Shown in pieces: positions 16,246-32,457 of a DNA stretch of 64,000 nucleotides. Positions within the stretch are counted from its first letter, which is position 1. Each line of letters begins with the position of its first letter. This stretch comes from an uncultured Gammaproteobacteria bacterium (GTDB taxonomy: Bacteria > Patescibacteriota > Patescibacteriia > JAHIZJ01), in NCBI GenBank assembly GCA_964594455.1, contig CAZQLY010000001.1, positions 69,989 to 133,988 of the forward strand, read 5' to 3'. The notes beneath the pieces were generated by a model, which did not search any database, was not told the origin of the DNA, and worked only from the letters and a program-made list of their open reading frames with translations. The position numbers and the translations under genes are program-made.

Positions 16246-16635
16246 TGGTGGAGATGAGGGGAATTTCACCCCTGTCTGGAAAGGTCTCCAAAAACCTTCT
16301 ACCAACATAGTCTGTTTATAAGGATTCGAGCAACAAGGTCGAAACAGACAAAAAACTTGTTACTCTAGTCTCAGTTGCCCAGAACGATCTGCTGAAACAC
16401 CTAGATCGTTAGCCCTGATAAATGACACCCGGGTTTCTCCTATCAGGAGTCAGAGAATCGGATGGTCGCTGGTTATTTAAGCAGCGACAGGAGCTAAGCT
16501 AAATGATGCGAAAGCATTCTTTAGTTTAGCCAATTTTGACTTGGCATTTGTCTTGTGACCAGTTTTTTTACAGAGATCTGAGACTCTGATTGGCCGGTGT
16601 TTGAATGTGCTTTCCGTCGATTATTAAACATCCCC
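16246..16635 (-). ncRNA. ssrA: tmRNA (SsrA)
   Basis: Minus-strand 5' end GGGGAUGUUUAAUAAUCGACGGAAAGCAC parallels the canonical GGGG...AUUCGACGG start. The 3' end GGGGUGAAAUUCCCCUCAUCUCCACCA is a T-arm plus acceptor stem ending in CCA, with G3:U70 pairing. An internal reading frame ends ...SFSLAPVAA followed by UAA. smpB lies immediately adjacent. Confidence 0.65.
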
Positions 16636-16753: not shown

Positions 16754-17200
16754 CTACCTTTTTAAAGCTCGGCGAATGCGTCGATCGGTTTCGCGTTTCT
16801 TTATTGTTTCACGCTTATCTGACTTCTTTTTTCCGCGTCCGATTCCGCCCTTGAGCTTAATCAGGCTGCCTCTAGTATATAGAGACAAGGGCATTAATGT
16901 CAAGCCTTGAGAGGCTCCTTTCCCGATCAGGCTTTTTATCTCACTTTTTTTCAAAAGAAGCTGGCGTTCGCGAGTGGGTTTATACTTTCTCTGGACGCTT
17001 TTGGCGTATTTATAAGGTGAGATATGACAATTGACCAGAATCGGAACATTATTCCTGATAGATATGTAGCTCCCTTTGAGTTGTACTTGTCCGCTTTTCA
17101 CAGATTTCACCTCGGGTCCAGTCAATACAATACCGGCCTCGAATTCGTCTTGAATATCGTAGCTGTACCGAGCGTATTTATTTGTGGCTAAAGTTGGCAT
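16754..17200 (-). CDS. smpB: SsrA-binding protein SmpB
   Basis: 'YDIQDEFEAGIVLTGPEVKSVKSGQVQLKGSYI' and a basic C-terminal tail, as expected for the SmpB family. Confidence 0.85.
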   Translation of the reverse strand: MPTLATNKYARYSYDIQDEFEAGIVLTGPEVKSVKSGQVQLKGSYISIRNNVPILVNCHISPYKYAKSVQRKYKPTRERQLLLKKSEIKSLIGKGASQGLTLMPLSLYTRGSLIKLKGGIGRGKKKSDKRETIKKRETDRRIRRALKR

Positions 17201-20254: not shown

Positions 20255-20507
20255 TATTTTTTGCAATATAATATATAAAAAAAAGAGGTCCGTTGATTGA
20301 AGCGGTACCTCGTTTGGCTGTCAGCAGATAGCCCACTGCCCAGAACAAGACCGGGTTCAGTCCCGGGGGGATGAAGTGGCTCTGGATCAAGTGCTGGATA
20401 GCGCTGAGTACAGCCACCCAGGCGATGAACGGCGGACTGATCCACCCAATGAACAAACAAGCGAACGAGACCAGCAGAATGCAGAAAATGGCTTCGGAAC
20501 GCGGCAT
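20181..20507 (-). CDS. small multi-TM membrane protein, hypothetical
   Basis: GGAGG ribosome-binding site 7 nt upstream of the ATG (MPRSEAIFCILLVSF...). About three hydrophobic helices. Elevated GC. Overlaps the glycosyltransferase 3' end convergently by ~74 nt, so it is uncertain. Confidence 0.3.
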   Translation of the reverse strand: MPRSEAIFCILLVSFACLFIGWISPPFIAWVAVLSAIQHLIQSHFIPPGLNPVLFWAVGYLLTAKRGTASINGPLFFIYYIAKNIISCASSERLFLSSGSSGILLDKP

Positions 20508-21125
20508 ATCCATCCCTCCTTTCAGATATGGCCATAAGCGCTTTTTCACCATAATCAAACTAGCATTTGTGCGTATAATGTGCAATAAAGCTGTATTATG
20601 TATATTTTCCCTTCAAGGTCCCTAGTTTTTTAATAATTTATATGGTTTACAATATCTATAAAAATGGTTTTTTGGGGTGATTTTATGATATTAACCTATG
20701 AATACATATGATTTTTTTCAATTAATGCTTGACAGGGTTTCACCATTCGTGGTAACCTATGAAATGGTATGAAAAATAACAGTTTCAGAAGGCGCCTTCA
20801 TTAACCTATTAAGAAAAGCTATTAAGGGCTCGCACCCCGATCTGGCCAAAAATACACCAGCAAACAGCAGGCCGAGCAGACTGCATTAAGCAGCTGGTGG
20901 GCAAAGTCGAGCCCATTATTAAGTACTAAAGCGTACCATTATGGCAAAGACAAAAACTTCAGCCTATGGCAAGCAGAAACAGAAAATCGTTCCTGTTCGC
21001 TCATATAAAAGGAACGGCAAACGGATAAAACCGCATCGCCGCTCCACCCGGAATAAAATAGGTTGTGAGTCAATCGGGGTGTGGACTTTTGATAAATCCT
21101 ACTAAATAAATTATACATCACTACC

Positions 21126-22838
21126 GTGGTAAATAAAACATCAAGCGAAAAGAAATTATTATCAATCAGCCAAGTGTCGAAAATCTTTGGTATCCACCAA
21201 GATACACTTCGTAATTGGGAGAAAAAAGGACTCATTACTCCTCTCCGGGTGGGTCCTCGTAAGGACAGAAAATATCGCCCTCAAGATATTGAAAGAATCG
21301 CCAACGATAAAAGTCTCGTAGATGAATTTATTTCTCCGGTGGCTGATGAGCGAGGGAAAATGAATCTCACCCAGTTAAAGCAGTTTCTCTGGAGAAGCGC
21401 TGATATATTACGTGGAAAAATCGATAGTTCCGATTACAAAAAGTATATTTTTGGACTTCTTTTTTATAAGCGCATTAGTGATGTGTGGGATGAAGAATAT
21501 AAAAAAGTTTTGGAAGAGTTTCACAATGAAGATTTAGCACGCAGTGATCACAATCACCGCTTTCAGGTTCCAAAAGATTGTCAGTGGTCAGAGATTCAAA
21601 AACAGGCAGAAGGAATCGGGCATAAGCTCAACGAAATTTTTGATAAACTTACCAACGCAAACAACCCGAAGCTGGATAAGATATTTGATGATCTTGATTT
21701 TGCGAATAAGGACAAATTTCCTAATGAGACACTCCAGCGTCTGGTCAATCATTTTTCTCAATTCAATTTTGGCGATAATTATATCAGTTCCGATCTTTTG
21801 GGTGACGCATACGAATACCTTATTGAGCAGTTCGCGGCGGATGCTGGAAAAAAAGGTGGGGAGTTCTACACACCCCGTGAAGTAGAGCGTGTAATTATTA
21901 ATATTTTGAAACCGCACGAAAAAGACCACATCTATGACATGGCGGCTGGTTCGGGCGGGTTCTTACTCGAGGCATATCATTATCTTAAAAGTCAGGCAAG
22001 CGAAAAAAAAGCTCGCTCACTGTATCTCTATGGCCAAGAAATAAATATTGGCACATACGCGATTGCAAAGATTAATATGTTTCTGCACGGACTTGATGGT
22101 GCGGACATTCAGCGCGGTGACACGCTAGCGGATCCGAAATTTCTCAATCCCGATGGCTCACTTAAAACATTCGACATTTGCGTGGCAAATCCACCATATT
22201 CTGTAAAAGAATGGGAAACTGAAACATTTAGAGCCGACAAATACGGTCGGATTACTGACTATGAAATGCCCCCGACCAAAAAAGCCGATTATGCCTTTGT
22301 TTTACACATGGTGAAGTCAATGAATGAAAATGGTCGTGCCGGAATTGTACTTCCCCATGGCGTGCTTTTCCGTGGTGGTGCAGAGGGTCGTATCCGCGAA
22401 AAACTCATCAAAGATGATCTCATTGAAGCAATTATTGCTTTACCGCCTAAACTATTTTATGGCACAGGGATACCTGCAGCGATCGTAATATTTAATAAGA
22501 ATAAACCAGAGGAACATAAGAATAAAATTCTCATCATTGACGCTGAAAAGGATTTCGAGGAGGGGAAAAATCAAAATCGCCTTCGCAAGAAAGATATTGA
22601 GAAAATCGTTTTAGCCTTTGATGGGTATCGGGATATAGAAAAATATGCCCGTGTAGTAGATATTAAAGAATTAGAAGAAAACGAATTTAATCTAAATGTT
22701 CGTAGATATATTGAGAATGGTGAGGATGAGGAAGTGGTGGATGTCAAAACAGTATGGAGCGAGTTAAAGGATATTGAAAAAGAGCGCGAGGTGGTTGATA
22801 AAAAAGTCGAGGGGTATTTAAAGGAGTTGGAGTATTAA
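21126..22838 (+). CDS. hsdM: Type I restriction-modification system methyltransferase HsdM, with an in-frame N-terminal HTH (excisionase/MerR-like) extension
   Basis: 'NPPYS' N6-adenine methyltransferase motif. HsdM N-domain 'LWRSADILRGKIDSSDYKKYIFGLLFYKRISD'. The first ~78 residues ('ISQVSKIFGIHQDTLRNWEKKGLITPLRVGPRKDRKYRPQDIERI') look like an HTH_17/Xis-type DNA-binding domain. The ORF begins at GTG 21126. An internal ATG at 21360 (MNLTQLKQFLW...) matches canonical HsdM starts. Confidence 0.85.
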   Translation: MVNKTSSEKKLLSISQVSKIFGIHQDTLRNWEKKGLITPLRVGPRKDRKYRPQDIERIANDKSLVDEFISPVADERGKMNLTQLKQFLWRSADILRGKIDSSDYKKYIFGLLFYKRISDVWDEEYKKVLEEFHNEDLARSDHNHRFQVPKDCQWSEIQKQAEGIGHKLNEIFDKLTNANNPKLDKIFDDLDFANKDKFPNETLQRLVNHFSQFNFGDNYISSDLLGDAYEYLIEQFAADAGKKGGEFYTPREVERVIINILKPHEKDHIYDMAAGSGGFLLEAYHYLKSQASEKKARSLYLYGQEINIGTYAIAKINMFLHGLDGADIQRGDTLADPKFLNPDGSLKTFDICVANPPYSVKEWETETFRADKYGRITDYEMPPTKKADYAFVLHMVKSMNENGRAGIVLPHGVLFRGGAEGRIREKLIKDDLIEAIIALPPKLFYGTGIPAAIVIFNKNKPEEHKNKILIIDAEKDFEEGKNQNRLRKKDIEKIVLAFDGYRDIEKYARVVDIKELEENEFNLNVRRYIENGEDEEVVDVKTVWSELKDIEKEREVVDKKVEGYLKELEY

Positions 22839-22841
22839 ATA

Positions 22842-24293
22842 ATGAAAACAGAGATTTCTAACAATAGGATGATAAATGGGCAAACGAAAAATTTGCAAAT
22901 TAAACATTTAAGCAAAGTAAATGTTATTTTTGGCAAAAATGGAACTGGTAAAAGTAGTTTCTTAAGAAATCTCTATCAATCAGATTCAGAGAATTTTCAC
23001 TTAATTGTACCTGAGAGAGGTGGTGCAGAAATGCGGCAAAATTCTGGGATATTAGATCAGGAAAATAATCCTCAACAAAAGAAGGCAGTTAGAAGATGGA
23101 ACTTCGATTCAGAATATCGAAGCAGAGCAATTTCTAGAGCAACTAACATTCTCACTTCACTGGGATACAATACGGCCCATAACATTCAATCCAAAGAGGT
23201 GTCAGCTGAGGAATTAACTACACTATTTAGGGTTTTCTTGCCGGAGTTTAAAGTAATATTTAACTCTAGCGCCCCGTTTAATCTTGAAATTTTCCGTGAG
23301 ATTAATGGAAATGAAGAAAAAATAACAGATGCAAAGCAGTTATCTTCTGGGCAAGTTGAAGCATTATCACTAGCCGCAGATATCATTACTCAAGCCATTT
23401 TGTGGGACGCGACAGAAAAAACTCTCTTAATTGATGAACCCGATGTTCACCTTCATACTGATTTAGAAAACAGATTTGCAATTTTTATTAATGAGATAGC
23501 CAAAAGATTTGGCGTACAAGTTATTATTGCCACCCATTCTTCCGGCCTAATCGCAAGCTTACTGAGTTTAATAAAAGAAGTTGGAATTTTATGCTTTGAT
23601 AAAAATAGTGAAGAGATTTCTGCTATACAGAAGGATCAGGCATCTATTTTTACAAATTTATTGAGCATTGAGTTGTCCTTGGCGGTCGTTTTGAATAGGA
23701 AAATAGTCATTGTTGAAGGCAATGATGATTTTCTGGTTTGGAATCAGGCAACACGTTCGCAGCAATTTGACGATATTGCATTAATACAGGCGAATGGTAG
23801 CGATATATTAAAATACAAAAATAATGCGGAGAAAATTTTAGAAGCTGTTCTTGATAGAAATTGTCAACTTGGTGTTACTTTACTTGATGGTGATAACAAA
23901 CAAAAGTTTACTAATCAACAAAATGATAAACTACCTTGCGAAAGATTAAATTGTTATAGCTTAGAAAACTTATTGTTAACCAACGAAGTTCTACAAATAA
24001 TCAAACCTGACATTGATCTGAACAACGAACTTAAAGTTCTTAAAGGTGAAGATAATATTACCGATGATGAAAAAAATATTCTTGATGGGGTTATTAAGGA
24101 CAAACAACACACAAAAATACCCAAGGAACTGATAAAAAAAATTCATTCATATATTGACGAACACTCATCGTCACGCGATTGGAGAATTATTATTGGTAAA
24201 AGTCTGGGTATAAATATGCCCTCTGGGGAATTAGCGTCTTTTTTAGGGGGAGACATTGTGAAATATATTTGGAATGAGAATAAAGAAATATGA
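22842..24293 (+). CDS. ABC-type ATPase fused to a Toprim-like domain (OLD-family / PARIS AriA-AriB-like / GajA-like nuclease)
   Basis: Walker A 'GKNGTGKSS', ABC signature-like 'QLSSGQVEALSLA', Walker B 'LLIDEPDVHLH', H-loop 'ATHSS'. C-terminal 'KIVIVEGNDDF' ... 'LLDGDNK' resembles the Toprim/DUF4435 E and DxD motifs. Sits directly after the hsdM stop. Confidence 0.55.
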   Translation: MKTEISNNRMINGQTKNLQIKHLSKVNVIFGKNGTGKSSFLRNLYQSDSENFHLIVPERGGAEMRQNSGILDQENNPQQKKAVRRWNFDSEYRSRAISRATNILTSLGYNTAHNIQSKEVSAEELTTLFRVFLPEFKVIFNSSAPFNLEIFREINGNEEKITDAKQLSSGQVEALSLAADIITQAILWDATEKTLLIDEPDVHLHTDLENRFAIFINEIAKRFGVQVIIATHSSGLIASLLSLIKEVGILCFDKNSEEISAIQKDQASIFTNLLSIELSLAVVLNRKIVIVEGNDDFLVWNQATRSQQFDDIALIQANGSDILKYKNNAEKILEAVLDRNCQLGVTLLDGDNKQKFTNQQNDKLPCERLNCYSLENLLLTNEVLQIIKPDIDLNNELKVLKGEDNITDDEKNILDGVIKDKQHTKIPKELIKKIHSYIDEHSSSRDWRIIIGKSLGINMPSGELASFLGGDIVKYIWNENKEI

Positions 24294-24682
24294 CAGAAGT
24301 TGAAAAATTACAAATCTCAATTAGTCGAGAGCACTCTGATGTTAAGGGTGAAATCAGTGAAATTTTTAAAGATCTAAATGCTAGTGTTAAGGCAGACTAC
24401 GTGCGCCTTTCTGAAAGCGAGCTAGCGATGCAGGTGATTATTTTTTTAACAACTGCTTTTGCGGGTGGAGCACTGTGGGATGTACTAAAGTGGTCGATAA
24501 AAGAGCTGTATAAAAAACACCCTAAAGCGATGGTTGAAATTCGTGATTCGGATTCTATTATGTACGCGGTTAAAGGAGACTTAAGTATTACGGTGATAGT
24601 TGCCCCAGATAGGGCAAAAGAGTTTGAACACATAAACACGCTCGACGATTTACGGAAGCATTTAGAGTCGACTAAAAGATGA
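24290..24682 (+). CDS. hypothetical small protein, translationally coupled partner of the ATPase-Toprim gene
   Basis: ATGA overlap with the upstream gene. 130 aa with no recognised motif. Confidence 0.4.
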   Translation: MTEVEKLQISISREHSDVKGEISEIFKDLNASVKADYVRLSESELAMQVIIFLTTAFAGGALWDVLKWSIKELYKKHPKAMVEIRDSDSIMYAVKGDLSITVIVAPDRAKEFEHINTLDDLRKHLESTKR

Positions 24683-24837
24683 AAAATAATACAACACAAA
24701 AGAATATTCCGAGCGGGTGGAAACTAAAAAAATTGAGTAATGTTTTGGATTATGAACGACCAGATGCCTATATTGAAAAAAAGCGCGGGATTGTTGACAA
24801 AAAAGTTGGAGGGTATTTAAAGGAATTAAAATATTAA
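24679..24837 (+). pseudogene. chimeric remnant ORF: hsdS 5' fragment (~33 codons) fused in frame to the hsdM 3' end (~19 codons)
   Basis: Nucleotides 24679-24778 are ~90% identical to the hsdS start at 25722-25820. Nucleotides 24781-24837 are ~80% identical to the hsdM 3' end at 22782-22838. The joint lies at the shared microhomology ATATTG(A/T)AAAAAG. Translation gives MKNNTTQKNIPSGWKLKKLSNVLDYERPDAYIEKKRGIVDKKVGGYLKELKY*. Confidence 0.6.
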
Positions 24838-24840
24838 TTT

Positions 24841-25239
24841 ATGAACGAGAAAAGACTAAAACATTTGGAGTTAATTCAAGGGGTCGTCACCAGAATGGGC
24901 TCAAATCTCTTTACATTAAGAGGTTGGATGATAACGCTTGTCGTCGGTCTGTCTGTTGCTTTTTTGGAGGTTGGGCGTAATGAATTGCAAATTATACTAG
25001 TATTCGTTGTTTTAATATTTTGGATCCACGATGCGTACTTCCTTTCTTTGGAGCGAAGCTACCGATGCATGTACGACAAAGTTAGGAAATTAACAGAGGA
25101 TGAGATTGATTTTTCAATGGATATTTCGGAATTTAATAAGTTAAGGGCGACATCCATTTGGTACTGCATGATATCCGGTACTCTGGCGTATTTTTATATA
25201 CCGACTCTCGTATTGATAGGAATAATAAGTATATTTTAA
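24841..25239 (+). CDS. small three-TM membrane protein (SLATT-like / TM effector candidate)
   Basis: 132 aa with three predicted hydrophobic helices (WMITLVVGLSVAFLEV; IILVFVVLIFWI; IWYCMISGTLAYFYIPTLVLIGIISIF). Starts 3 nt after the chimeric scar and ends 2 nt before the TIR gene. Confidence 0.5.
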   Translation: MNEKRLKHLELIQGVVTRMGSNLFTLRGWMITLVVGLSVAFLEVGRNELQIILVFVVLIFWIHDAYFLSLERSYRCMYDKVRKLTEDEIDFSMDISEFNKLRATSIWYCMISGTLAYFYIPTLVLIGIISIF

Positions 25240-25241
25240 TT

Positions 25242-25721
25242 ATGACAAGAAAAATATTTTACAGTTTTCGTTTTGATGACGACGTAATGAGGGTTCAGCA
25301 AATCCGAAATATAGGAGTTATCGAAGACAACAAGCCTGTTACGGCTAACAAATGGGAAGAAATTAAAAGTGGCGGTGATTCTGCGATTCAAAAATGGATT
25401 GATGCTAGCATTGCCCGATCTGAATGCGTCGTTGTGTTAATTGGAAAAAATACTTCACAAAGTCGTTGGGTTGATTACGAAATCAGAAAAGCTTGGAACG
25501 ATGGTAAGGGCTTAGTGGGTATCTACATTCACAATTTAAAAGACCCAAGGTATGGAACCTCTGATAAAGGCACCAATCCTTTTGAACAGATAGGATTAAA
25601 AAATGGAAAAAAATTATCTGAATATGTTTCTGTTTATAACCCAGACACAGATGCCTACAACTATATAGCTAAATACATAGATCAAATTGTCGAGAAAGGA
25701 ATCGATTCGCGGAATAAATAA
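25242..25721 (+). CDS. TIR-domain protein, ThsB-like (DUF1863-type)
   Basis: 'KIFYSFRFDDD' (TIR βA FxSY..D start), 'VVVLIGKNTSQSRWVDYEIRKAW' with a conserved Glu near residue 80, and 'GLVGIYIHN'. This pattern resembles Thoeris ThsB-type TIR proteins as recalled from memory. Confidence 0.55.
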   Translation: MTRKIFYSFRFDDDVMRVQQIRNIGVIEDNKPVTANKWEEIKSGGDSAIQKWIDASIARSECVVVLIGKNTSQSRWVDYEIRKAWNDGKGLVGIYIHNLKDPRYGTSDKGTNPFEQIGLKNGKKLSEYVSVYNPDTDAYNYIAKYIDQIVEKGIDSRNK

Positions 25722-26882
25722 ATGAAAACTGACACAATACAACAAAATACTCCGAGTGGATGGAAACTCAAAAAATTGAGTGATGTTTTGGATTATGAAC
25801 GACCAGATGCCTATATTGTAAAAAGTACAAGCTACAACGACAAAGCAAAGACCCCAGTGCTTACCGCAAACAAATCCTTTATCTTGGGATATACAGATGA
25901 GGATTTCGGAATTTATAAAAATGTTCCTGCAATAATTTTTGATGATTTTACCACTGACAGCAAGTTTGTAGATTTTCCGTTTAAGGTTAAGTCTTCAGCG
26001 ATTAAAATCTTAAAAGAAAAAAATAAAGAGATAGATCTGCGATTTGTATTTGAAAAAATGAAGTCAGTGAATTTCCCTACAGGAAGTCATAAGCGTTTCT
26101 ATATTTCGCAGTATCAAAATTTAGACATAACAGTTCCCCCGATCAAAGAACAGCAAAAGATTGCAGAGATATTGGGAGGAGTTGATGAGGATATTGCGAA
26201 GACGCAGGAAGTGATTGAGGCGACCGAGAAGCTCAAGCGCGGATTGATGCAACAGCTTTTTACTCGCGGGATTGGGCATACAAAGTTCAAAGATACAGAG
26301 ATTGGAGAGATTCCAGTAGAATGGAAGTTGGAACAATTAAGAGATGTGGCTGATTTTATAAACGGAAAAGCACACGAAAGAGATATTACTGAATATGGTC
26401 ATTATGTTGTTATCAACTCAAAATTTATTTCTACAAATGGAGAGGTTGCAAAACGTTCAGATAAAAATTTGATCCCATTAAGTATTGGGGATATTGCAAT
26501 GGTAATGAGCGATGTCCCTAATGGCAAGGCGATTGCAAAATGTTTTTATGTTTTAGAAAATAATAAGTATACCCTGAATCAGAGAATCTGCTCACTTCGT
26601 GCAAAAAATATCTATAGTAGATTTTTGTATTATGTCGTAAACAGAAATCAATATTTTCTTAAACATGACGACGGAGTTGGACAAACAAATTTAAGAAAAG
26701 ATGAAGTGTTAAACTGCCCCGTCCAAGTTCCGCCAATTAAAGAACAGAAAAAGATCGTCAGAATTATTGAAGCTGTCGATGAAAAGATTTTGATTAATAA
26801 GAAATTAAAAGAAAAACTTACCCAACTCAAAAAAGGCCTGATGCAGGATCTTTTAAGTGGGATGAAGAGAGTAAAAATATGA
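25722..26882 (+). CDS. hsdS: Type I restriction-modification system specificity subunit HsdS
   Basis: Two target-recognition-domain halves, each followed by a conserved 'PPIKEQ(Q/K)KI..IL..VDE.I' repeat (residues ~139 and ~334). Gene position between hsdM and hsdR. Confidence 0.85.
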   Translation: MKTDTIQQNTPSGWKLKKLSDVLDYERPDAYIVKSTSYNDKAKTPVLTANKSFILGYTDEDFGIYKNVPAIIFDDFTTDSKFVDFPFKVKSSAIKILKEKNKEIDLRFVFEKMKSVNFPTGSHKRFYISQYQNLDITVPPIKEQQKIAEILGGVDEDIAKTQEVIEATEKLKRGLMQQLFTRGIGHTKFKDTEIGEIPVEWKLEQLRDVADFINGKAHERDITEYGHYVVINSKFISTNGEVAKRSDKNLIPLSIGDIAMVMSDVPNGKAIAKCFYVLENNKYTLNQRICSLRAKNIYSRFLYYVVNRNQYFLKHDDGVGQTNLRKDEVLNCPVQVPPIKEQKKIVRIIEAVDEKILINKKLKEKLTQLKKGLMQDLLSGMKRVKI

Positions 26883-27562
26883 AAGATGATATGGAGAAAA
26901 AATGGGAACAAAATCATTTGACTCTTTGGCAGGATGATTCCTCACGAATAGAAGAATTCTTCAAACGATTTGGTGTAGAAATGTCGCAATCCTATAATAA
27001 TCTTTTCAATCTGGATTATGATTTCATCCAGCCAGCTATTTATCTAATTGGGAAAATTGAGAAGGTCATAGAGGTATGCGATTTTTTGAACTCTCTTGCG
27101 AAAAATAATCATGATGACGTTGATAAGATTAAAATATTTTATTTAGTTTCACATGCCGAAATTATTATCAATACTTTTACCGCAAATTCGGCCGGTATGA
27201 ATAAAAGTGATTTAGTTGATTCCTTTTTTGAGCCCGTTAAGGATAAATTACAGTATACCTTGCAGCTCACGAGTGAGGATACGAATAAATTAAGCAAAAT
27301 GAATCAACAAATTACTCCAAGCAGGATATTGTACAAATTGCGCAACGAATATGCTCATCAGGGTAATTTTACGGGTAAGATTTTTAAATTGCTCACAGAT
27401 GAAGAAAAGGTATCCAACCTATTTTCGTTCGATTGGGATATCCCGAAAGCACAACCGCTTGATGTTTGTGGTCTAACAAGATTAACATACGATCAGTTTC
27501 TTCATATATATTTTTCAGCTTTTAAGTGGCATTTTGAAGACTATATAAAAAAACATTCATGA
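26879..27562 (+). CDS. hypothetical protein with a HEPN-like R-x4-H motif, embedded between hsdS and hsdR
   Basis: 'KLRNEYAHQG' fits the Rx4-6H HEPN signature. ATGA overlaps with both hsdS and hsdR. Otherwise no recognised motif. Confidence 0.3.
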   Translation: MKDDMEKKWEQNHLTLWQDDSSRIEEFFKRFGVEMSQSYNNLFNLDYDFIQPAIYLIGKIEKVIEVCDFLNSLAKNNHDDVDKIKIFYLVSHAEIIINTFTANSAGMNKSDLVDSFFEPVKDKLQYTLQLTSEDTNKLSKMNQQITPSRILYKLRNEYAHQGNFTGKIFKLLTDEEKVSNLFSFDWDIPKAQPLDVCGLTRLTYDQFLHIYFSAFKWHFEDYIKKHS

Positions 27563-30477
27563 AATTTAACGAACAGGTAACAGTAGAAAATTATATTATC
27601 AAGTTTATTCAAAATAAGCTTGGTTATGAATACGTTAAGCCAGAGGAATTTGCTAAATACCGTGATCTTGAGAGTGAATATATTATCACCCCACTTTTAG
27701 AGAATGCTATTAAGAACCTCAATCAAGATATTACAGAAAATGAAATTAAAAATGTCATTCGCGAAGTCAAAAAGATTGATACAAATCAAGGTTTCCTAGA
27801 GGCCTTGAGAAACGGAGTTAACTTAAAAAATCCCAAGACAGGCAAGAAGCACGATTATAAATTACTTGATTTTGAGAATCCTGAGAATAATCAATTTGTC
27901 GTTACCAATCAATTTTATTTCGAGGGCGACAGTGAGAATATTCGACCTGATGTTATGATTTTTGTTAACGGATTGCCACTTGTGGATATTGAAGCAAAGA
28001 GCCCGACTGCCTCAGAGGGTGTCAGCTTTGAGAATGGAATGGATCAGATTAAGCGATACGAAAAGGTAGCCCGAAAATTATTCATTCCAAATTGTTTTAA
28101 TATTGCTAGTGACGGACTTAAAACGGTATATGGCGCGACTGGCGCACCGAAACAGTACTTTTTTCAATGGCGCGATGAGGATAAAGAAAAAGAGATGGGT
28201 GGCGAACTTGAGATGACCTTGTTTGCACTTTTAGCAAAGGAAAATTTCTTGGATATTGTGCAGAATTTTATACTGTTCGAAAAAGAGAAAGAAATGCTCG
28301 TGAAGAAAATTACTCGATATCAACAAATGCGTGCGACGAATAAGATTGTCGAGCGAGTGGTGAATAAGGAAAAGCGACAAGGTTTAATTTGGCACACACA
28401 AGGTTCAGGTAAGACATTAACCATGTTTTTCACTGCGTGGAAATTACGCTTTAATAAATTGTTGAATAATCCAAAGGTTTTTATTTTGGTTGACCGAGTT
28501 GATTTAGATGATCAGATATTTGAAACGTTTACTAACGCCGGGGGTAAAAATGTCATTCGTGTTATTTCCCGAAAAGATTTAGAAGAGAAGATTCAGTCCC
28601 CAATGAGTGGTATATTTATCACTACCATTCAAAAATTTTCAGAACTCGGTAGCAAGGTAGAAAATTTAGAAGAGAATGTGATTATTCTTTCTGATGAAGC
28701 ACACCGCGGTGATGAGGGAGTGTCAGGTATTAATATGCGTAACGCATTTAAAAAAGCGTTTTTCTTCGGGTTTACTGGTACGCCAATCGATAAAACGCAT
28801 ACAAATACATTTCGCAATTACGAAGGTGAGGGTAAGCGCTATCTTGATTATTATTCCATTCAGCAGGCAATTGATGATGGCGCGACCATTCCCGTTACCT
28901 ATGAAGCGCGGTTGTCTAAGTTTTCTATTGATGAGGAAAAGTTAGATCAGCAGTTTGATGAGATTGCTGGTGATCTTTCAGATAAGCACAAAACTGAATT
29001 GGTAAAGAAATATGGAAAGAAGGCAGCACTTGTGAAACTACCAAAACGTATGGAGGCAATAGCACGTGATATAGTGGAGCATTATAAACTATATATAGAA
29101 CCGAATGGCTTTAAGGCGCAAGTTGTGGCTTACGATCGTGAAGCTGTTGCTGGGTATAAAAAGTTACTTGATGAATTAGTGCCAGCTGAATGGTCTGCCG
29201 TGGTGTATTCGCCCGGTGATCCCAACAGTGATGCCGATGATCTGAAGGCGTATAACACGAGCAAAAACGAGAGAGAGAAGATTATTGAACGATTTAAAGA
29301 TCCGAAATCTCCTCTTAAATTTCTTTTAGTCTGTGATATGTTGCTGACTGGTTTTGATGCACCTGTTGAACAAGTAATGTACCTGGATAAACCACTCCGC
29401 GATCATAATTTATTGCAAGCGATCGCGCGAACGAACAGGGTTTACAATAAAAAAAAGGAAGCGGGAAAAATCATTGATTATTATGGGATAACTAGGAACT
29501 TATACGATGCGCTTGATTTTGATGAGGATATAGTCGATTCCGCGATGATTGATATAGATAGAGTCAAGCAAAGGTTCACTGATGTGTTGGATGATGTCAT
29601 GAAGATTTTCACTGGGGTCAATATTGAGGACCCTTCAATGGATAATTTGCGGCGTTGTTTAAAAATTTTCATTGATAATCAAGATAAGCAAAAATATTTT
29701 GTCGAAAAATATACGAAACTTAAGAGCTTATTTGAATTTTTATCGCCAGATCCATTCTTGAAACAGTATGTCCGCAAGTTTGAATGGCTCACCAGTTTTT
29801 ATCTAGCTTTTTTGAAAGAATATCGTAGTGAAGAGGATAGATATTTACTGGAAGAATATGGTGAAAAAGTAAAAGAACTGATTCAAAAGAGTGATATTAT
29901 TGACTACGAAGGTATAACTAAGAATTTTCGGGAGCTCAAGGTCAATGAATTGTATACCCTTGAACGTCTCAAAGGCATGGACGACGAGGAAAAGGCGCTC
30001 AATTTGGAGAAAATGCTTAAGCAGGAAATTTCTATTAAACTTGATGAAGATCCTGCCTTCCAAAAGTTTAGCGAGCGCCTCACGGCAATACGGCGAGAGT
30101 TCGAACAAAATCAAATTGATCTTGCTGAGAGGATTCGCAGATATGAGGAATTAATGAAAGATATTAAATCTAAAGGTGATGAAGCCAAGGAGCTAGGGCT
30201 TGATCTAAAAGAATATGCACTATATGTGATCTCTCAGGAGTTTGCTAGTGATAAAGAGGTGGATGTTATTAAAGAGTTCGTTAGAGAGTTACGCGTTCGT
30301 ATTGAGGATGATCTAGACGCTGGTTGGCAAGATTCTTCAAAACGCGACGTATTTATTAAGGATATCAAACAAACCTTGCAAGAATTGATTTTAAAAGACT
30401 ATAAAGGCCGACTGAAGGTTAAAGATTTTCCAAAATTCATGAATAGACTTGTAGATATCATTATCAAGAAATTCTAA
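27559..30477 (+). CDS. hsdR: Type I restriction enzyme endonuclease/helicase subunit HsdR
   Basis: SF2 helicase motif I 'TQGSGKTLTMFF' and motif II 'LSDEAHRG'. 972 aa. Gene position after hsdS. Confidence 0.9.
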   Translation: MKFNEQVTVENYIIKFIQNKLGYEYVKPEEFAKYRDLESEYIITPLLENAIKNLNQDITENEIKNVIREVKKIDTNQGFLEALRNGVNLKNPKTGKKHDYKLLDFENPENNQFVVTNQFYFEGDSENIRPDVMIFVNGLPLVDIEAKSPTASEGVSFENGMDQIKRYEKVARKLFIPNCFNIASDGLKTVYGATGAPKQYFFQWRDEDKEKEMGGELEMTLFALLAKENFLDIVQNFILFEKEKEMLVKKITRYQQMRATNKIVERVVNKEKRQGLIWHTQGSGKTLTMFFTAWKLRFNKLLNNPKVFILVDRVDLDDQIFETFTNAGGKNVIRVISRKDLEEKIQSPMSGIFITTIQKFSELGSKVENLEENVIILSDEAHRGDEGVSGINMRNAFKKAFFFGFTGTPIDKTHTNTFRNYEGEGKRYLDYYSIQQAIDDGATIPVTYEARLSKFSIDEEKLDQQFDEIAGDLSDKHKTELVKKYGKKAALVKLPKRMEAIARDIVEHYKLYIEPNGFKAQVVAYDREAVAGYKKLLDELVPAEWSAVVYSPGDPNSDADDLKAYNTSKNEREKIIERFKDPKSPLKFLLVCDMLLTGFDAPVEQVMYLDKPLRDHNLLQAIARTNRVYNKKKEAGKIIDYYGITRNLYDALDFDEDIVDSAMIDIDRVKQRFTDVLDDVMKIFTGVNIEDPSMDNLRRCLKIFIDNQDKQKYFVEKYTKLKSLFEFLSPDPFLKQYVRKFEWLTSFYLAFLKEYRSEEDRYLLEEYGEKVKELIQKSDIIDYEGITKNFRELKVNELYTLERLKGMDDEEKALNLEKMLKQEISIKLDEDPAFQKFSERLTAIRREFEQNQIDLAERIRRYEELMKDIKSKGDEAKELGLDLKEYALYVISQEFASDKEVDVIKEFVRELRVRIEDDLDAGWQDSSKRDVFIKDIKQTLQELILKDYKGRLKVKDFPKFMNRLVDIIIKKF

Positions 30478-30481
30478 TACA

Positions 30482-31021
30482 ATGACTAATCGCATTACCT
30501 ATACCGTAAAAAGAAGCAAGCGAGCAAAACTAATGCGTCTCGCGGTGTATTGTGATGGTCGGGTTGTAGTAACTGCCCCTATAAATATTCAGGAGTCAAT
30601 AATTCAAAAAATCGTACGGGAGAAGAGTCAATGGTTAGTCCAAAAGATAGATTTTTTTGCACAATTTAAAAATCAACCGATAGCTCGATATAGTAGAAAT
30701 CATTTTCTACAACACAAGGAGAGTGCTCACGAGTTTGTGTCATCGCGCCTAGCCAATCTAAACAAAAAATATGGTTATAATTATAATCAAATTAACATAA
30801 AAAATCAGAAAACTCGCTGGGGTAGTTGTTCAAAAAAAGGAAATTTGAATTTTAATTATAAAATAAAGTTTTTACCAACAAAATTGGCCGACTATATTAT
30901 TGTGCATGAGCTTTGTCATTTGAAAGAGTTTAACCATTCGCGTAAATTTTGGAACCTAGTTGGTAGAACTTTTGCAAATTATAAGGACATCAGAAAGGAA
31001 ATGGTCGCATGGAGAGTGTAA
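30482..31021 (+). CDS. DUF45/YgjP-like (M48-related) zinc metallopeptidase
   Basis: 'IIVHELCHLKEFNHSRKFWNL' is the HExxH...NHS..FW signature of DUF45. The family is frequently hsdR-linked. Confidence 0.75.
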   Translation: MTNRITYTVKRSKRAKLMRLAVYCDGRVVVTAPINIQESIIQKIVREKSQWLVQKIDFFAQFKNQPIARYSRNHFLQHKESAHEFVSSRLANLNKKYGYNYNQINIKNQKTRWGSCSKKGNLNFNYKIKFLPTKLADYIIVHELCHLKEFNHSRKFWNLVGRTFANYKDIRKEMVAWRV

Positions 31022-31383
31022 ATATAATTAATATTATATTTAATGGAATTAATGAGGGCAAAAAAGAAGCGGCCCAGATTTTGTGGGATATACTTATATC
31101 ATTTTTTCACCAGTACATATTATTCTTTTTAGCGATTGTAATTAGTCTATTGATTTTTTCTTTTACCAAAGCCGTACTCGGTAGGTGGGGCATGCTCGGA
31201 AGTGTGCTTTATAATATATTGTATTTTGGGATTTTATTTATTGTGGGTTCAATTTGGGGACCCAGTATATTTGTAAGCAATTATTTTCATCTTGCTTGCA
31301 CAGTAGTATTGTATCCTATTTGTTATCAGATAGTGGGTTTTATTCTAAATACAACAGGACTTCGGAGAAGCTATGCTCAATAA
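31009..31383 (+). CDS. hypothetical membrane protein
   Basis: 124-aa ORF with 3-4 hydrophobic helices. Confidence 0.3.
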   Translation: MESVNIINIIFNGINEGKKEAAQILWDILISFFHQYILFFLAIVISLLIFSFTKAVLGRWGMLGSVLYNILYFGILFIVGSIWGPSIFVSNYFHLACTVVLYPICYQIVGFILNTTGLRRSYAQ

Positions 31384-31519
31384 TTATTCATCTTATTTTA
31401 ACCATTGGAGCGGAAGCTGTCCGTAGCGATGCATCGCAGACGACGCTCTGGTAAAACTATGTTGCCAGAGCACTTTTAAAGAAAAAGATCAGTTAATATT
31501 AATTTATTAATTAAAACCT

Positions 31520-32038
31520 ATGGAACAACTTGCTACTAACACCACTACTTGGTATGTCATTTTGCCAATCATGCTTATCATGCTGGCAGGAATTATTTGG
31601 TTTATCATTGGGTTGAAGACAGTCATTTGGAAAAAGGTTGTTATGATATTATTGGGATTTTTTTCTTTTATTGGATTCTCGGCAGTTTTATTGAGTGTTT
31701 ATTATCAGACCAGCACTGTTTTTTCCGGATCATTTGATTTATACGCTTATTCAGTCTTTGCTCCTGAGCGGGATCCTTTTGATATTCCTGAAGGGGATTA
31801 TGATACTGTCTTGGCTACCTTTGGAGTGTATAAGGAAAATGGAGAATTAAAAGTTATGCGTGTGCCAAATTCTTCTACTCAGTATGGAGCCTATCTATTT
31901 AGTCCTGGCAAATGGATGGTGGTTGATGTAAATGATGATGTTATTACTCTCTCGGAATCCGAGCCAAATATAACTGAGATGTCTTTTTGGTGGGCAATGA
32001 CTAAAGATTTGTACAACCTTAAAGTGTCAGTAGAGTAG
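31520..32038 (+). CDS. hypothetical membrane-anchored protein
   Basis: Two N-terminal TM helices followed by a soluble domain. Followed by a terminator. Confidence 0.35.
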   Translation: MEQLATNTTTWYVILPIMLIMLAGIIWFIIGLKTVIWKKVVMILLGFFSFIGFSAVLLSVYYQTSTVFSGSFDLYAYSVFAPERDPFDIPEGDYDTVLATFGVYKENGELKVMRVPNSSTQYGAYLFSPGKWMVVDVNDDVITLSESEPNITEMSFWWAMTKDLYNLKVSVE

Positions 32039-32055
32039 TTAAGTTATTATTTAAT

Positions 32056-32092
32056 AAAAAAAGCCCATCTGAAGAAATGATGGGTCTTTTTG
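32056..32092 (+). terminator. rho-independent terminator
   Basis: AAAAAGCCCATC-tgaagaaat-GATGGGTCTTTTT hairpin followed by a T-run. Confidence 0.55.
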
Positions 32093-32172
32093 AGCTGAGC
32101 TAAAGATTCTGGAAGTTTCAGGAATGAAAAGTCTTGTAACTAATAATGGTTATAATGTGGTATCATTTAAAT

Positions 32173-32406
32173 ATGAATATGTCAATACCAAAAGAGCTAG
32201 AAATAAAGGTAATAACGAATGCCAAAGCAGTGTCGGTTGAAGAGAAAGACGGGATTTATATAGTCCGTCTAACCAGCCAGCCGGAAAAAGGCCAAGCCAA
32301 CAAGCAGCTGATAAAAGTGATGTCAGACCATCTAAGAATCCCTAAGTCTAGGATAAAAATTAAATCAGGCCAGACCAGCCGGCGCAAGAAGCTGCTTGTA
32401 TTTTGA
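32173..32406 (+). CDS. DUF167 (YggU-like) protein
   Basis: 'GQANKQLIKVMSDHLRIPKSRIKIKSGQTSRRKKLLV' matches the DUF167 family pattern. The start could instead be 32146. Confidence 0.5.
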   Translation: MNMSIPKELEIKVITNAKAVSVEEKDGIYIVRLTSQPEKGQANKQLIKVMSDHLRIPKSRIKIKSGQTSRRKKLLVF

Positions 32407-32457
32407 TTTACGAGCCTATTTATGCTATTCTATCTTTAGATTATTAAGCCCAAAAAC

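What the first reader, a model, noticed from the sequence alone, without database searches (positions are those of the whole stretch)
22771..25820. Cassette boundaries marked by direct repeats of the hsdM 3' end and hsdS 5' end, with an in-frame hsdS'-'hsdM chimeric scar made at a 12-nt microhomology
The hsdM 3' end (22771-22838) reappears at 24770-24837 at ~80% identity. The first ~97 nt of hsdS (25722-25818) reappear at 24679-24775 at ~90% identity. The two copies are joined exactly at ATATTG(A/T)AAAAAG, which occurs in both real hsdM (22771-22782) and real hsdS (25808-25820). The scar reads in frame as a 52-aa ORF with an hsdS N-terminus and an hsdM C-terminus. The layout is therefore M3'-[cassette A]-S5'/M3'-[cassette B]-S5'(full hsdS). 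This is a circularly permuted junction of the kind expected from tandem duplication, or unequal exchange, between alleles of the locus that carry different cassettes at the hsdM/hsdS joint. The sequence thus shows that the hsdM-hsdS junction is a recombinogenic insertion point where defence cassettes are swapped or stacked.
Basis: seen in the sequence. Interest (0 to 1): 0.8.

Follow-up and report, generated by a model that had tools for sequence, protein, structure and literature searches.

The report
Recombination scar between stacked defence cassettes
Two small anti-phage gene cassettes sit one behind the other inside a restriction-modification operon of a Patescibacteria (CPR) bacterium, and the 159-base piece between them is a fused leftover of the two flanking genes, which shows that such cassettes are stacked by sloppy recombination between different versions of the same locus.

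Summary
The last 68 nt of hsdM recur at 24770-24837 (82%). The first 97 nt of hsdS recur at 24679-24775 (89%, with a 36-nt exact run). The two copies abut and read in frame as a 52-aa hsdS'-'hsdM ORF.

The locus is a type I RM operon in a Patescibacteria chromosome. It carries an OLD/PARIS-like ABC ATPase plus a 130-aa partner (cassette A) and PDC-M50 (cassette B) between hsdM and hsdS.

I compared about 110 non-redundant related CPR loci:
- Alleles exist with no cassette, with B alone, and with an A-like cassette alone.
- hsdM 3' remnants separate stacked cassettes in at least 9 to 13 loci, against zero hits in three control sets.
- Some remnants match foreign alleles better than their own hsdM.
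- Cassette B has a lower synonymous divergence (dS) than the RM backbone.

Exchange between different alleles is the better reading than simple tandem duplication. Embedding of defence genes in type I RM is already known; the recurring footprints of how the cassettes get stacked appear not to have been described. Interest is moderate.

The parts
21126..22838 (+). hsdM: type I methyltransferase with an N-terminal MerR-type HTH
   Evidence: Pfam N6_Mtase 1e-109, HsdM_N 1e-26, MerR_1 2e-12. PADLOC MTase_I 5e-146.
22771..22846 (+). M3' repeat, functional copy: last 68 nt of hsdM, the stop, a 3-nt spacer and the ATG of cassette A
   Evidence: the repeat finder family D2; alignment.
22842..24293 (+). 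Cassette A gene 1: 483-aa ABC-type ATPase, OLD/PARIS(AriAB)-like
   Evidence: Pfam AAA_21 3.5e-15 and AAA_15 1.3e-11. PADLOC AriAB 1.7e-18 and ATPase-Toprim_I-B 1.2e-14. Pfam finds no Toprim/DUF4435 domain.
24290..24682 (+). Cassette A gene 2: 130-aa protein with no family match. Its start overlaps the ATPase stop by 4 nt.
   Evidence: No Pfam or PADLOC hit. The partner gene differs in L079 (188 aa) and L080 (352 + 220 aa).
24679..24837 (+). 52-aa chimeric scar ORF: the hsdS 5' remnant (24679-24775) joined in frame to the hsdM 3' remnant (24770-24837). The crossover interval is about 24770-24782.
   Evidence: It is called as a gene in the NCBI record and has no match other than itself in the protein database.
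24841..25239 (+). Cassette B gene 1: 132-aa membrane-like protein, PDC-M50A
   Evidence: PADLOC PDC-M50A 5.5e-39. 94-96% aa identity to L002, L018 and L093, where it directly follows a complete hsdM.
25242..25721 (+). Cassette B gene 2: 159-aa TIR-like protein (ThsB_TIR / PDC-M50B)
   Evidence: Pfam ThsB_TIR 3.2e-26. PADLOC ThsB1 2e-65 and PDC-M50B 3.2e-56.
25722..26882 (+). hsdS: full-length specificity subunit. Its first 97-103 nt are the second copy of the S5' repeat (25717-25824).
   Evidence: Pfam Methylase_S 1.8e-33, two stretches. Repeat family D1.
26879..27562 (+). 227-aa unknown gene embedded at the hsdS-hsdR joint (the second cassette site)
   Evidence: No family hit. A 79%-identical homologue sits in the same position in L006.
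27559..30477 (+). hsdR: restriction/translocase subunit
   Evidence: Pfam HSDR_N 1.6e-39 and SWI2_SNF2 1.8e-69. PADLOC REase_I 7e-140.
30482..31021 (+). YgjP-like metallopeptidase, conserved after hsdR across the family
   Evidence: Pfam YgjP-like 2.4e-42. Present after hsdR in nearly all related loci.

Best explanation
Sequence 24679-24837 is the joint left by an illegitimate, microhomology-guided recombination between two versions of one type I RM locus that carried different embedded defence cassettes.

- One version had hsdM-[ATPase + 130-aa gene]-hsdS.
- The other had hsdM-[PDC-M50]-hsdS.
- A crossover joined position +97 of the first version's hsdS to position -68 of the second version's hsdM, at ATATTG[A/T]AAAA.
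- The product is hsdM-[A]-hsdS'::'hsdM-[B]-hsdS.

Both cassettes, one complete hsdM and one complete hsdS survive in a single tightly packed operon. The retained hsdM tail keeps the stop, spacer and start arrangement that cassette B had when it lay directly behind a whole hsdM.

The same process recurs across this Patescibacteria-wide RM family, at the hsdM/hsdS joint and at the hsdS/hsdR joint, so the operon works as a compact platform for collecting defence cassettes.

Shown: the repeats, the in-frame joint, the existence of single-cassette and empty alleles, recurrent remnants elsewhere, and cassette B being younger than the backbone.

Inferred:
- The order of events.
- That DNA came in by transformation or another route of horizontal transfer.
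- That the tail is kept for expression of the downstream cassette.
- That the direct repeats can resolve the stack back to either single-cassette form.
For: 1. The repeats and the in-frame joint are real.
2. The joint lies at the top-ranked shared run between hsdS 5' and hsdM 3'.
3. Putative parental architectures exist.
   - L002, L018 and L093 have hsdM-[M50A-ThsB]-hsdS, with the same 3-4-nt spacer after the hsdM stop.
   - L079 has hsdM-[ATPase at 77% aa + partner]-hsdS and is colinear with window 20821-24291.
   - L029, L033 and L056 have no cassette.
4. The window's two hsdM-tail copies are 82% identical. Foreign alleles reach 88% to the functional copy, and 48 close alleles have a pairwise median of 76%. 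Seven of the 12 differences are at third codon positions. This fits an origin from a separate functional allele.
5. hsdM 3' remnants sit between cassettes in L003, L004, L011, L015, L020, L021, L047, L077, L090, L091, L104 (three) and L157. Each ends at a stop codon 1-24 nt before the next gene's start.
6. Control for the remnant search: 12 sites in 102 kb of hsdM-hsdS gaps, against 0 in 162 kb of hsdR, 154 kb of hsdM bodies and 102 kb of reversed gaps.
7. Remnants match foreign alleles better than their own hsdM in L003 (95 vs 82%), L020 (95 vs 81%) and L091 (92 vs 87%).
8. Equivalent hsdR 5' remnants (L001, L041) and an hsdS 3' remnant (L023) lie in hsdS-hsdR gaps.
9. dS between the window and L018, L002 or L093 is 0.67-1.09 for cassette B but saturated for hsdM and hsdR, so the cassette moved between backbones.
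10. Remnant lengths and left-hand partners differ from locus to locus. This argues for illegitimate recombination and against site-specific recombination.
Against: - No allele with exactly cassette A (ATPase + this 130-aa partner) was found. No hsdM or hsdS allele matches the scar halves better than the window's own genes do: best foreign hsdM tail 81-82%, best foreign hsdS 5' 86%. The two parents are therefore inferred, not observed.
- The microhomology is no longer than chance gives.
- An in-frame joint has a one-in-three prior.
- Only the window shows a clear hsdS 5' remnant. Most other scars keep only the hsdM tail, so breakpoints may be biased in a way the simple model does not predict.
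- There are no read-level data to show that the structure is real in single cells or is polymorphic.
Confidence: 0.75

Rival explanations
1. In-situ tandem duplication of the segment from hsdM -68 to hsdS +97 in a single-cassette allele, followed later by replacement of one cassette copy through homologous exchange.
For: - The joint topology is exactly that of a tandem duplication.
- L104 has a 75-nt remnant 100% identical to its own hsdM tail.
- L157 has two paralogous cassette genes, each preceded by an hsdM tail.
So in-lineage duplication-type events do occur in this family.
Against: - It needs two events instead of one.
- The window's repeat copies are as diverged as alleles from different organisms.
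- Cassettes A and B are unrelated.
- Remnants in L003, L020 and L091 are closer to foreign alleles than to their own hsdM.
Confidence: 0.12
2. A second hsdM-cassette-hsdS module first arrived whole, next to the resident one. A deletion between the first hsdS and the second hsdM then removed the redundant genes, leaving the same S5'/M3' joint.
For: It produces an identical scar. Distant relatives with two tandem hsdM genes exist: L060, L061, L065 and L069.
Against: None of the close loci examined (about 110) shows two complete hsdM or hsdS genes in tandem as an intermediate. The tandem-hsdM loci belong to a different family, about 40-45% identical.
Confidence: 0.08
3. Assembly artefact: two strain variants (A-only and B-only) were joined in series by the metagenome assembler.
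For: The window comes from a metagenome-type assembly. The only record of its proteins is one NCBI contig of 198,913 bp.
Against: - The joint has only 6-11 nt of shared sequence, too short for a k-mer join.
- The repeat copies differ at 11-18% of positions, so they are not collapsed identical repeats.
- Analogous remnants occur in independent assemblies from many studies.
Confidence: 0.03
4. The 52-aa ORF is a selected functional product, for example a peptide that uses the HsdM C-terminal tail to dock on the methyltransferase core or to modulate its assembly, and not a neutral scar.
For: - The ORF is intact and overlaps the upstream stop by 4 nt.
- It ends 3 nt before the next start.
- In L104 and L077 a cassette protein (family F12) carries an in-frame HsdM-like tail that F12 lacks in L041 and L038.
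Against: - No homologue of the chimera exists among 5.8 billion proteins.
- Most remnants elsewhere are decayed, with internal deletions or stop codons.
Confidence: 0.05

Closest known systems
Defence genes embedded in type I RM, BREX, DISARM and Hma operons ('guilt-by-embedding', Payne et al. 2024, bioRxiv 10.1101/2024.01.29.577857). Earlier examples: PrrC in EcoprrI, TgvAB in the V. cholerae VPI-2 type I RM, and rlo genes in C. jejuni (as cited in 10.1101/2024.04.04.588119).
   Same: - Co-directional genes are nested between hsdM, hsdS and hsdR.
- Cassette B matches PDC-M50, a candidate from that study's PADLOC models.
- Other loci of this family carry PDC-S05/RhuM, PDC-S13, PDC-M48, Shedu and a CBASS cyclase.
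   Different: - That work catalogues what is embedded. It says the biological significance of embedding 'remains to be explored' and offers only a 'genomic sink' idea for how embedding arises.
- Here, remnants of the flanking genes record how cassettes were stacked.
- The host family is Patescibacteria-wide.
Homology-facilitated illegitimate recombination and microhomology-mediated unequal crossing-over. These are known from naturally transformable bacteria; this is from my own knowledge and was not checked in the papers read.
   Same: - A novel joint at a few bases of shared sequence.
- Duplicated flanking sequence as direct repeats.
- Variable breakpoints from event to event.
   Different: - Here it repeatedly acts at the boundaries of operon genes.
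- Selection keeps one intact copy of each RM gene, plus the stop/start arrangement in front of the downstream cassette.
Phase-variable type I RM loci with spare partial hsdS copies (invertons/shufflons, e.g. PMC7672463)
   Same: An extra partial hsdS sequence lies near the full hsdS.
   Different: - The copies are direct repeats, not inverted.
- The fragment holds only 97 nt, with no target-recognition domain.
- No recombinase was found among the neighbours examined.
Integron cassette arrays
   Same: Promoterless co-directional cassettes are stacked behind a fixed platform and separated by recurring boundary sequences.
   Different: - No integrase was found among the neighbours examined.
- No attC-like structure was found.
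- The boundaries are remnants of a coding gene, of variable length, 28-75 nt.

Membership tests
Type I restriction-modification system | HsdM with an HsdM_N domain and an N6 adenine methyltransferase domain | tested here: met
   Pfam N6_Mtase 1.1e-109, HsdM_N 9.6e-27
Type I restriction-modification system | HsdS with two target-recognition (Methylase_S) regions | tested here: met
   Pfam Methylase_S 1.8e-33, two stretches
Type I restriction-modification system | HsdR with an N-terminal nuclease domain and an SF2 translocase | tested here: met
   HSDR_N 1.6e-39, SWI2_SNF2 1.8e-69, T1RH-like_C 4.8e-12
RM-embedded defence cassette (Payne et al. 2024) | Genes nested between genes of a multi-gene defence system, in the same orientation | tested here: met
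   Five genes lie between hsdM and hsdR, all on the + strand, with spacings of -4 to +3 nt. Across the family, 131/137 gap genes are co-directional.
RM-embedded defence cassette (Payne et al. 2024) | Anti-phage activity of the embedded genes | not testable with these tools
   Profile matches only. PDC systems are untested candidates according to the authors.
PDC-M50 (PADLOC candidate system) | Adjacent M50A and M50B (TIR-like) genes | tested here: met
   PDC-M50A 5.5e-39 (1-130 of 134) and PDC-M50B 3.2e-56 (1-157 of 162), 2 nt apart
Thoeris | ThsB TIR protein together with a ThsA (SIR2/Macro-SLOG) effector | tested here: not met
   A ThsB_TIR domain is present (3.2e-26), but there is no ThsA-like protein among the ten operon genes scanned. 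The partner is a small membrane-like protein.
PARIS (AriA/AriB or fused AriAB) / OLD-family nucleases | ABC ATPase of the AAA_15/AAA_21 type | tested here: met
   AAA_21 3.5e-15, AAA_15 1.3e-11. PADLOC AriAB 1.7e-18.
PARIS (AriA/AriB or fused AriAB) / OLD-family nucleases | TOPRIM/DUF4435 nuclease domain | tested here: inconclusive
   The PADLOC AriAB and ATPase-Toprim_I-B profiles align through residues 117-436. Pfam finds no Toprim or DUF4435 in the C-terminal half even at E<=5.
Phase-variable hsdS inverton/shufflon | Inverted hsdS repeats and a nearby site-specific recombinase | tested here: not met
   The copies are in direct orientation. No recombinase was found among the neighbours scanned.
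Integron-type cassette array | Integrase and structured attC-like recombination sites with fixed boundaries | tested here: not met
   No integrase was found among the neighbours scanned. Remnant lengths and left-hand partners vary between loci.
Illegitimate-recombination (tandem-duplication-type) joint | A novel joint linking a downstream sequence to an upstream one, flanked by direct repeats, with microhomology at the crossover | tested here: met
   hsdS +97 is joined to hsdM -68 at ATATTG[A/T]AAAA. Direct repeat families D1 and D2.

The most novel reading that the evidence does not exclude
In this Patescibacteria-wide type I RM family, the last 40-75 nt of hsdM (its stop and the spacing to the next start codon) may act as a portable adaptor. 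Defence cassettes would then travel and stack as [hsdM tail + cassette] units, making the operon an integrase-free, integron-like platform for genome-reduced bacteria. In addition, the in-frame HsdM-tail fusions (the 52-aa ORF here, F12::tail in L104 and L077) might physically tether cassette products to the methyltransferase core.
Probability: 0.1. Interest if true: 0.8.

Novelty: new variant of a known kind. Interest (0 to 1): 0.55.

Why it matters
Embedding of defence genes inside RM operons is established, but how the genes get there is not. This locus and the other remnant-bearing loci give a sequence-level record of the process. Different alleles of one operon recombine at short shared sequences in the ends of hsdM, hsdS and hsdR. 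This stacks cassettes while keeping one working copy of each RM gene. The direct repeats could later resolve the stack back into single-cassette forms.

In Patescibacteria, which have tiny genomes and few defence systems, one horizontally spreading RM operon seems to serve as the main slot where defence cargo is collected and exchanged. This makes cassette gain and loss at a defined site testable with long-read metagenomes.

Tried and rejected
- **Chance or low-complexity similarity:** rejected. There is a 36-nt exact run and self-BLAST gives 8e-33 and 2e-15.
- **A 'special' 12-nt recombination site:** rejected. The shared run is 11 nt with one mismatch, and runs that long occur in 140/300 shuffles.
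- **Cassette A in metagenome contigs:** the search with the ATPase found nothing. Only L079, and unrelated contexts L080/L081, were found through protein homologues.
- **Source contig:** an exact look-up of the window's ATPase gave no contig record. The cluster look-up gave no names.
- **Other copies of the chimeric 52-aa ORF:** the search found only the ORF itself.
- **Better-matching parents for the two scar halves:** none found among about 110 non-redundant alleles. The best foreign hsdM tail is 81-82% and the best foreign hsdS head is 86%.
- **Viral contigs:** none carries this HsdM family.
- **Promoters and terminators:** the promoter scan is at chance level. No + strand terminator-like site lies inside the operon.
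- **Phase-variation and integron models:** rejected. There are no inverted repeats between the hsdS copies, no recombinase or integrase was found among the neighbours scanned, and the boundaries are variable.
- **Weak 'hsdS 3'' hits** from one panel member (L118) inside PDC-S13 genes, and hits from mis-defined termini of L027 and L046, were set aside as unreliable.
- **Pfam at relaxed thresholds:** this did not identify the 130-aa and 227-aa proteins or a Toprim domain.
- **Literature:** the searches found no earlier description of such remnants. The library is incomplete.


Full report
**1. Observation**

The region was read directly and aligned.
- The last 68 nt of hsdM (22771-22838) recur at 24770-24837 with 56/68 identities (82.4%). 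The match runs on through the stop, a 3-nt spacer and the next ATG: 76 nt at 82%.
- The first 97 nt of hsdS (25722-25818) recur at 24679-24775 with 86/97 identities (88.7%), or 108 nt at 87% with a few upstream bases.
- Self-BLAST within the locus gives 8e-33 and 2e-15.
- The hsdS pair includes a 36-nt exact run of ordinary complexity. The longest exact run in the hsdM pair is 14 nt.
- The two remnants abut and read as one 52-aa ORF, 24679-24837. It consists of the HsdS N-terminus (32 aa) and the HsdM C-terminus (20 aa).

A three-way alignment places the crossover between the hsdS-specific CCT and the hsdM-specific GCGCG, inside ATATTGAAAAAAA.
- In register, hsdS and hsdM share ATATTG[T/A]AAAA: 11 nt with one mismatch.
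- This is the top-ranked shared run between the first 200 nt of hsdS and the last 200 nt of hsdM. Runs of that length occur in 140/300 shuffles.
- It is therefore a typical microhomology, not a dedicated site.
The motif lies at 25813-25825.

**2. What the locus is**

All genes from 21126 to 31021 are on the + strand, with spacings of -4 to +4 nt. There is no + strand terminator-like site before 31185. The genes, in order, are listed below.
- hsdM, with an N-terminal MerR-type HTH.
- A 483-aa ABC ATPase. PADLOC's best match is the fused PARIS protein AriAB at 1.7e-18. Pfam shows no Toprim domain.
- A 130-aa protein with no family match.
- The scar ORF.
- PDC-M50A (5.5e-39).
- A ThsB-type TIR protein (ThsB_TIR 3.2e-26; PDC-M50B 3.2e-56).
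- hsdS.
- A 227-aa unknown protein.
- hsdR.
- A YgjP-like peptidase.

The host is a Patescibacteria bacterium. Its ArgRS has best matches of 74% and 71%, the named ones being 'Patescibacteria group bacterium'.

Relatives keep the synteny SmpB-ArgRS-glycosyltransferase-[variable slot]-two response regulators-IleRS-RecO.
- L163 has only one 165-aa gene in the variable slot.
- L162 has unrelated cargo there.
- The window holds the 12-kb RM island there.

The island has 31-40% G+C against 41-46% in the flanks.

HsdM is 85-89% identical to proteins in MAGs labelled Saccharibacteria, Parcubacteria, Magasanikbacteria, Uhrbacteria and others. That is far above the ArgRS level. The operon therefore spreads horizontally among CPR lineages.

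**3. Comparative evidence**

The data are 78 genome loci, 80 metagenome loci and L079-L081. After removal of duplicates, 87 loci have a complete hsdM-hsdS interval.
- The interval is empty in 10 loci, holds one gene in 42 and holds two to five genes in 35.
- 131 of 137 interval genes are co-directional with the operon.
- The hsdS-hsdR interval is equally variable.

Recurrent cargo families:
- PDC-S05/RhuM
- PDC-S13/Bro-N
- NYN
- Shedu SduA
- A CBASS-type cyclase
- PDC-M48
- PDC-M50

The same families occur at either joint.

Architectures that match the inferred parents exist.
- L002, L018 and L093 carry hsdM-[M50A-ThsB]-hsdS. M50A is 94-96% aa identical, and the spacing after the hsdM stop is the same 3-4 nt.
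- L079 carries hsdM-[ATPase at 77% aa + a different 188-aa partner]-hsdS. It is colinear with window 20821-24291, ending exactly at the ATPase stop.

**4. Scars are recurrent**

Three methods were used: self-comparison of each locus, a panel search with the termini of all alleles, and explicit alignments.
- hsdM 3' remnants lie between cassettes in L003, L004, L011, L015, L020, L021, L047, L077, L090, L091, L104 (three remnants) and L157, as well as in the window.
- Each remnant ends in the hsdM stop codon 1-24 nt before the start of the next cassette gene.
- hsdR 5' remnants (L001, L041) and an hsdS 3' remnant (L023) lie in hsdS-hsdR gaps.

A control with the same queries and score cut-off gave these counts:

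| Target | Size | Sites found |
|---|---|---|
| hsdM-hsdS gaps | 102 kb | 12 sites in 9 loci |
| hsdR bodies | 162 kb | 0 |
| hsdM bodies | 154 kb | 0 |
| Reversed gaps | 102 kb | 0 |

Remnants occur in 11 of the 35 loci with two or more gap genes. None was detected in the 52 loci with zero or one gap gene.

The remnants differ in length, from 28 to 75 nt, and in what lies to their left. Several are decayed: L015 has internal deletions and L001 has stop codons. This argues for independent illegitimate events and against a site-specific system.

**5. Foreign allele or in-situ duplicate?**

- In L003 the remnant is 95% identical to L002's hsdM tail but 82% to its own. The figures are 95 vs 81% in L020 and 92 vs 87% in L091.
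- In L104 one remnant is 100% identical to its own tail.
- Both inter-allelic events and within-lineage events therefore occur.
- In the window the two tails are 82% identical. Foreign alleles reach 88% to the functional copy, and the pairwise median among 48 close alleles is 76%.
- Seven of the 12 differences fall at third codon positions, and the frame is intact. This fits origin from another functional allele.
- Synonymous divergence between the window and L018, L002 or L093 is 0.67-1.09 for cassette B. It is saturated for hsdM and hsdR. The cassette has therefore moved between backbones more recently than the backbones diverged.

**6. Mechanism**

Best reading: one illegitimate crossover joined hsdS +97 of an A-bearing allele to hsdM -68 of a B-bearing allele. 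The result stacks both cassettes while keeping one intact copy of each RM gene.

Two-step alternatives give the same joint and cannot be fully excluded:
- Duplication followed by replacement of one cassette copy.
- Insertion of a whole second module followed by deletion of the redundant genes.

An assembly chimera is unlikely.
- The shared sequence at the joint is too short for a k-mer join.
- The repeat copies are diverged.
- Independent assemblies show the same kind of remnant.

Three further points are inference:
- The hsdM tail is retained because it carries the stop/start context, and a purine-rich AAGGA(G) stretch, in front of the downstream cassette.
- The in-register direct repeats can delete either cassette and regenerate intact single-cassette operons. 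The 36-nt exact run in the hsdS pair is the more likely substrate.
- Natural competence, reported for Saccharibacteria (abstract of PMC10187176), supplies the donor DNA.

**7. Relation to what is known**

- Embedding of defence genes in type I RM operons is established. Examples are PrrC, TgvAB, the rlo genes, and the systematic survey of Payne et al. 2024, from which the PDC models come.
- Payne et al. 2024 state that the significance of embedding remains to be explored, and for its origin they offer only a 'genomic sink' idea.
- A horizontally acquired type I RM island with an ATP-dependent endonuclease has been noted in a Patescibacteria MAG (PMC12455944).
- I found no description of flanking-gene remnants as footprints of cassette stacking. 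The searchable library is incomplete.

**8. Verdict**

The thing itself is a known kind of arrangement: defence cassettes embedded in a type I RM operon. What is new is a well-preserved recombination joint that proves to be one case of a recurrent pattern in a CPR-wide RM family. Interest is moderate, at 0.55.

Noticed in passing
window 16246-16635 (-) and 16754-17200 (-): A tmRNA gene (Rfam RF00023, 101.7 bits) lies next to SmpB, about 4.5 kb upstream of the RM island. ARAGORN did not report it.
   Followed up: partly
window 20255-32457; L162 12840-19221; L163 12903-13701: The whole RM operon sits in a variable chromosomal slot between a GT4 glycosyltransferase and two response-regulator genes. 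One relative has only a 165-aa gene there and another has unrelated cargo. The island has lower G+C (0.31-0.40) than its flanks (0.41-0.46).
   Followed up: partly
window 21126-21360 and 20821-21125: HsdM carries an N-terminal MerR-type HTH (aa 13-70), conserved across the family. About 300 nt upstream of hsdM is also conserved with L079, which suggests a self-contained regulatory module that travels with the operon.
   Followed up: no
window 24290-24682; L079 6960-7526; L080 9468-11191: The OLD/PARIS-like ATPase keeps changing its downstream partner. Here it is a 130-aa protein. In L079 it is an unrelated 188-aa protein, whose family also occurs in L006. In L080 the partners are 352-aa and 220-aa proteins behind a type IIG enzyme. 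None has a family match.
   Followed up: partly
window 26879-27562; L006 9476-10159: A 227-aa protein with no family match is embedded at the hsdS-hsdR joint, overlapping both neighbours by 4 nt. A 79%-identical homologue is in the same position in L006.
   Followed up: no
L104 2703-5160: One metagenome locus carries three hsdM-tail remnants in a single hsdM-hsdS gap. One is a 75-nt perfect copy of its own hsdM tail, which indicates a very recent event.
   Followed up: partly
L104 3908-4387; L077 10136-10606; L041 12446-12892; L038 12587-13033: Cassette family F12 (about 150 aa, no family match) ends in an HsdM-like tail (...KKVEKYLKELKY) in L104 and L077 but not in L041 or L038. In-frame fusions to the HsdM C-terminus are therefore not unique to the window.
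   Followed up: partly
L003 3125-3261; L104 5031-5104; L091 2737-2814: NYN-domain cassettes are followed by a conserved, hairpin-rich non-coding stretch (77-85% identity between loci). It could be a terminator or a small RNA that belongs to the cassette.
   Followed up: no
L041 14043-14372: A 163-nt tandem duplication (99% identical) lies in the hsdS-hsdR gap, next to a 30-nt hsdR 5' remnant.
   Followed up: no
L006, L084, L085, L094, L100-L102, L133, L135: A more distant PDC-M50-like pair occurs in the reverse gene order (TIR protein first, then the membrane-like protein), also directly behind hsdM.
   Followed up: no
window 30482-31021 and nearly all related loci: A YgjP-like metallopeptidase gene follows hsdR in almost every locus of the family. 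Its sequence identity (50-59%) is much lower than that of HsdR (64-89%).
   Followed up: no
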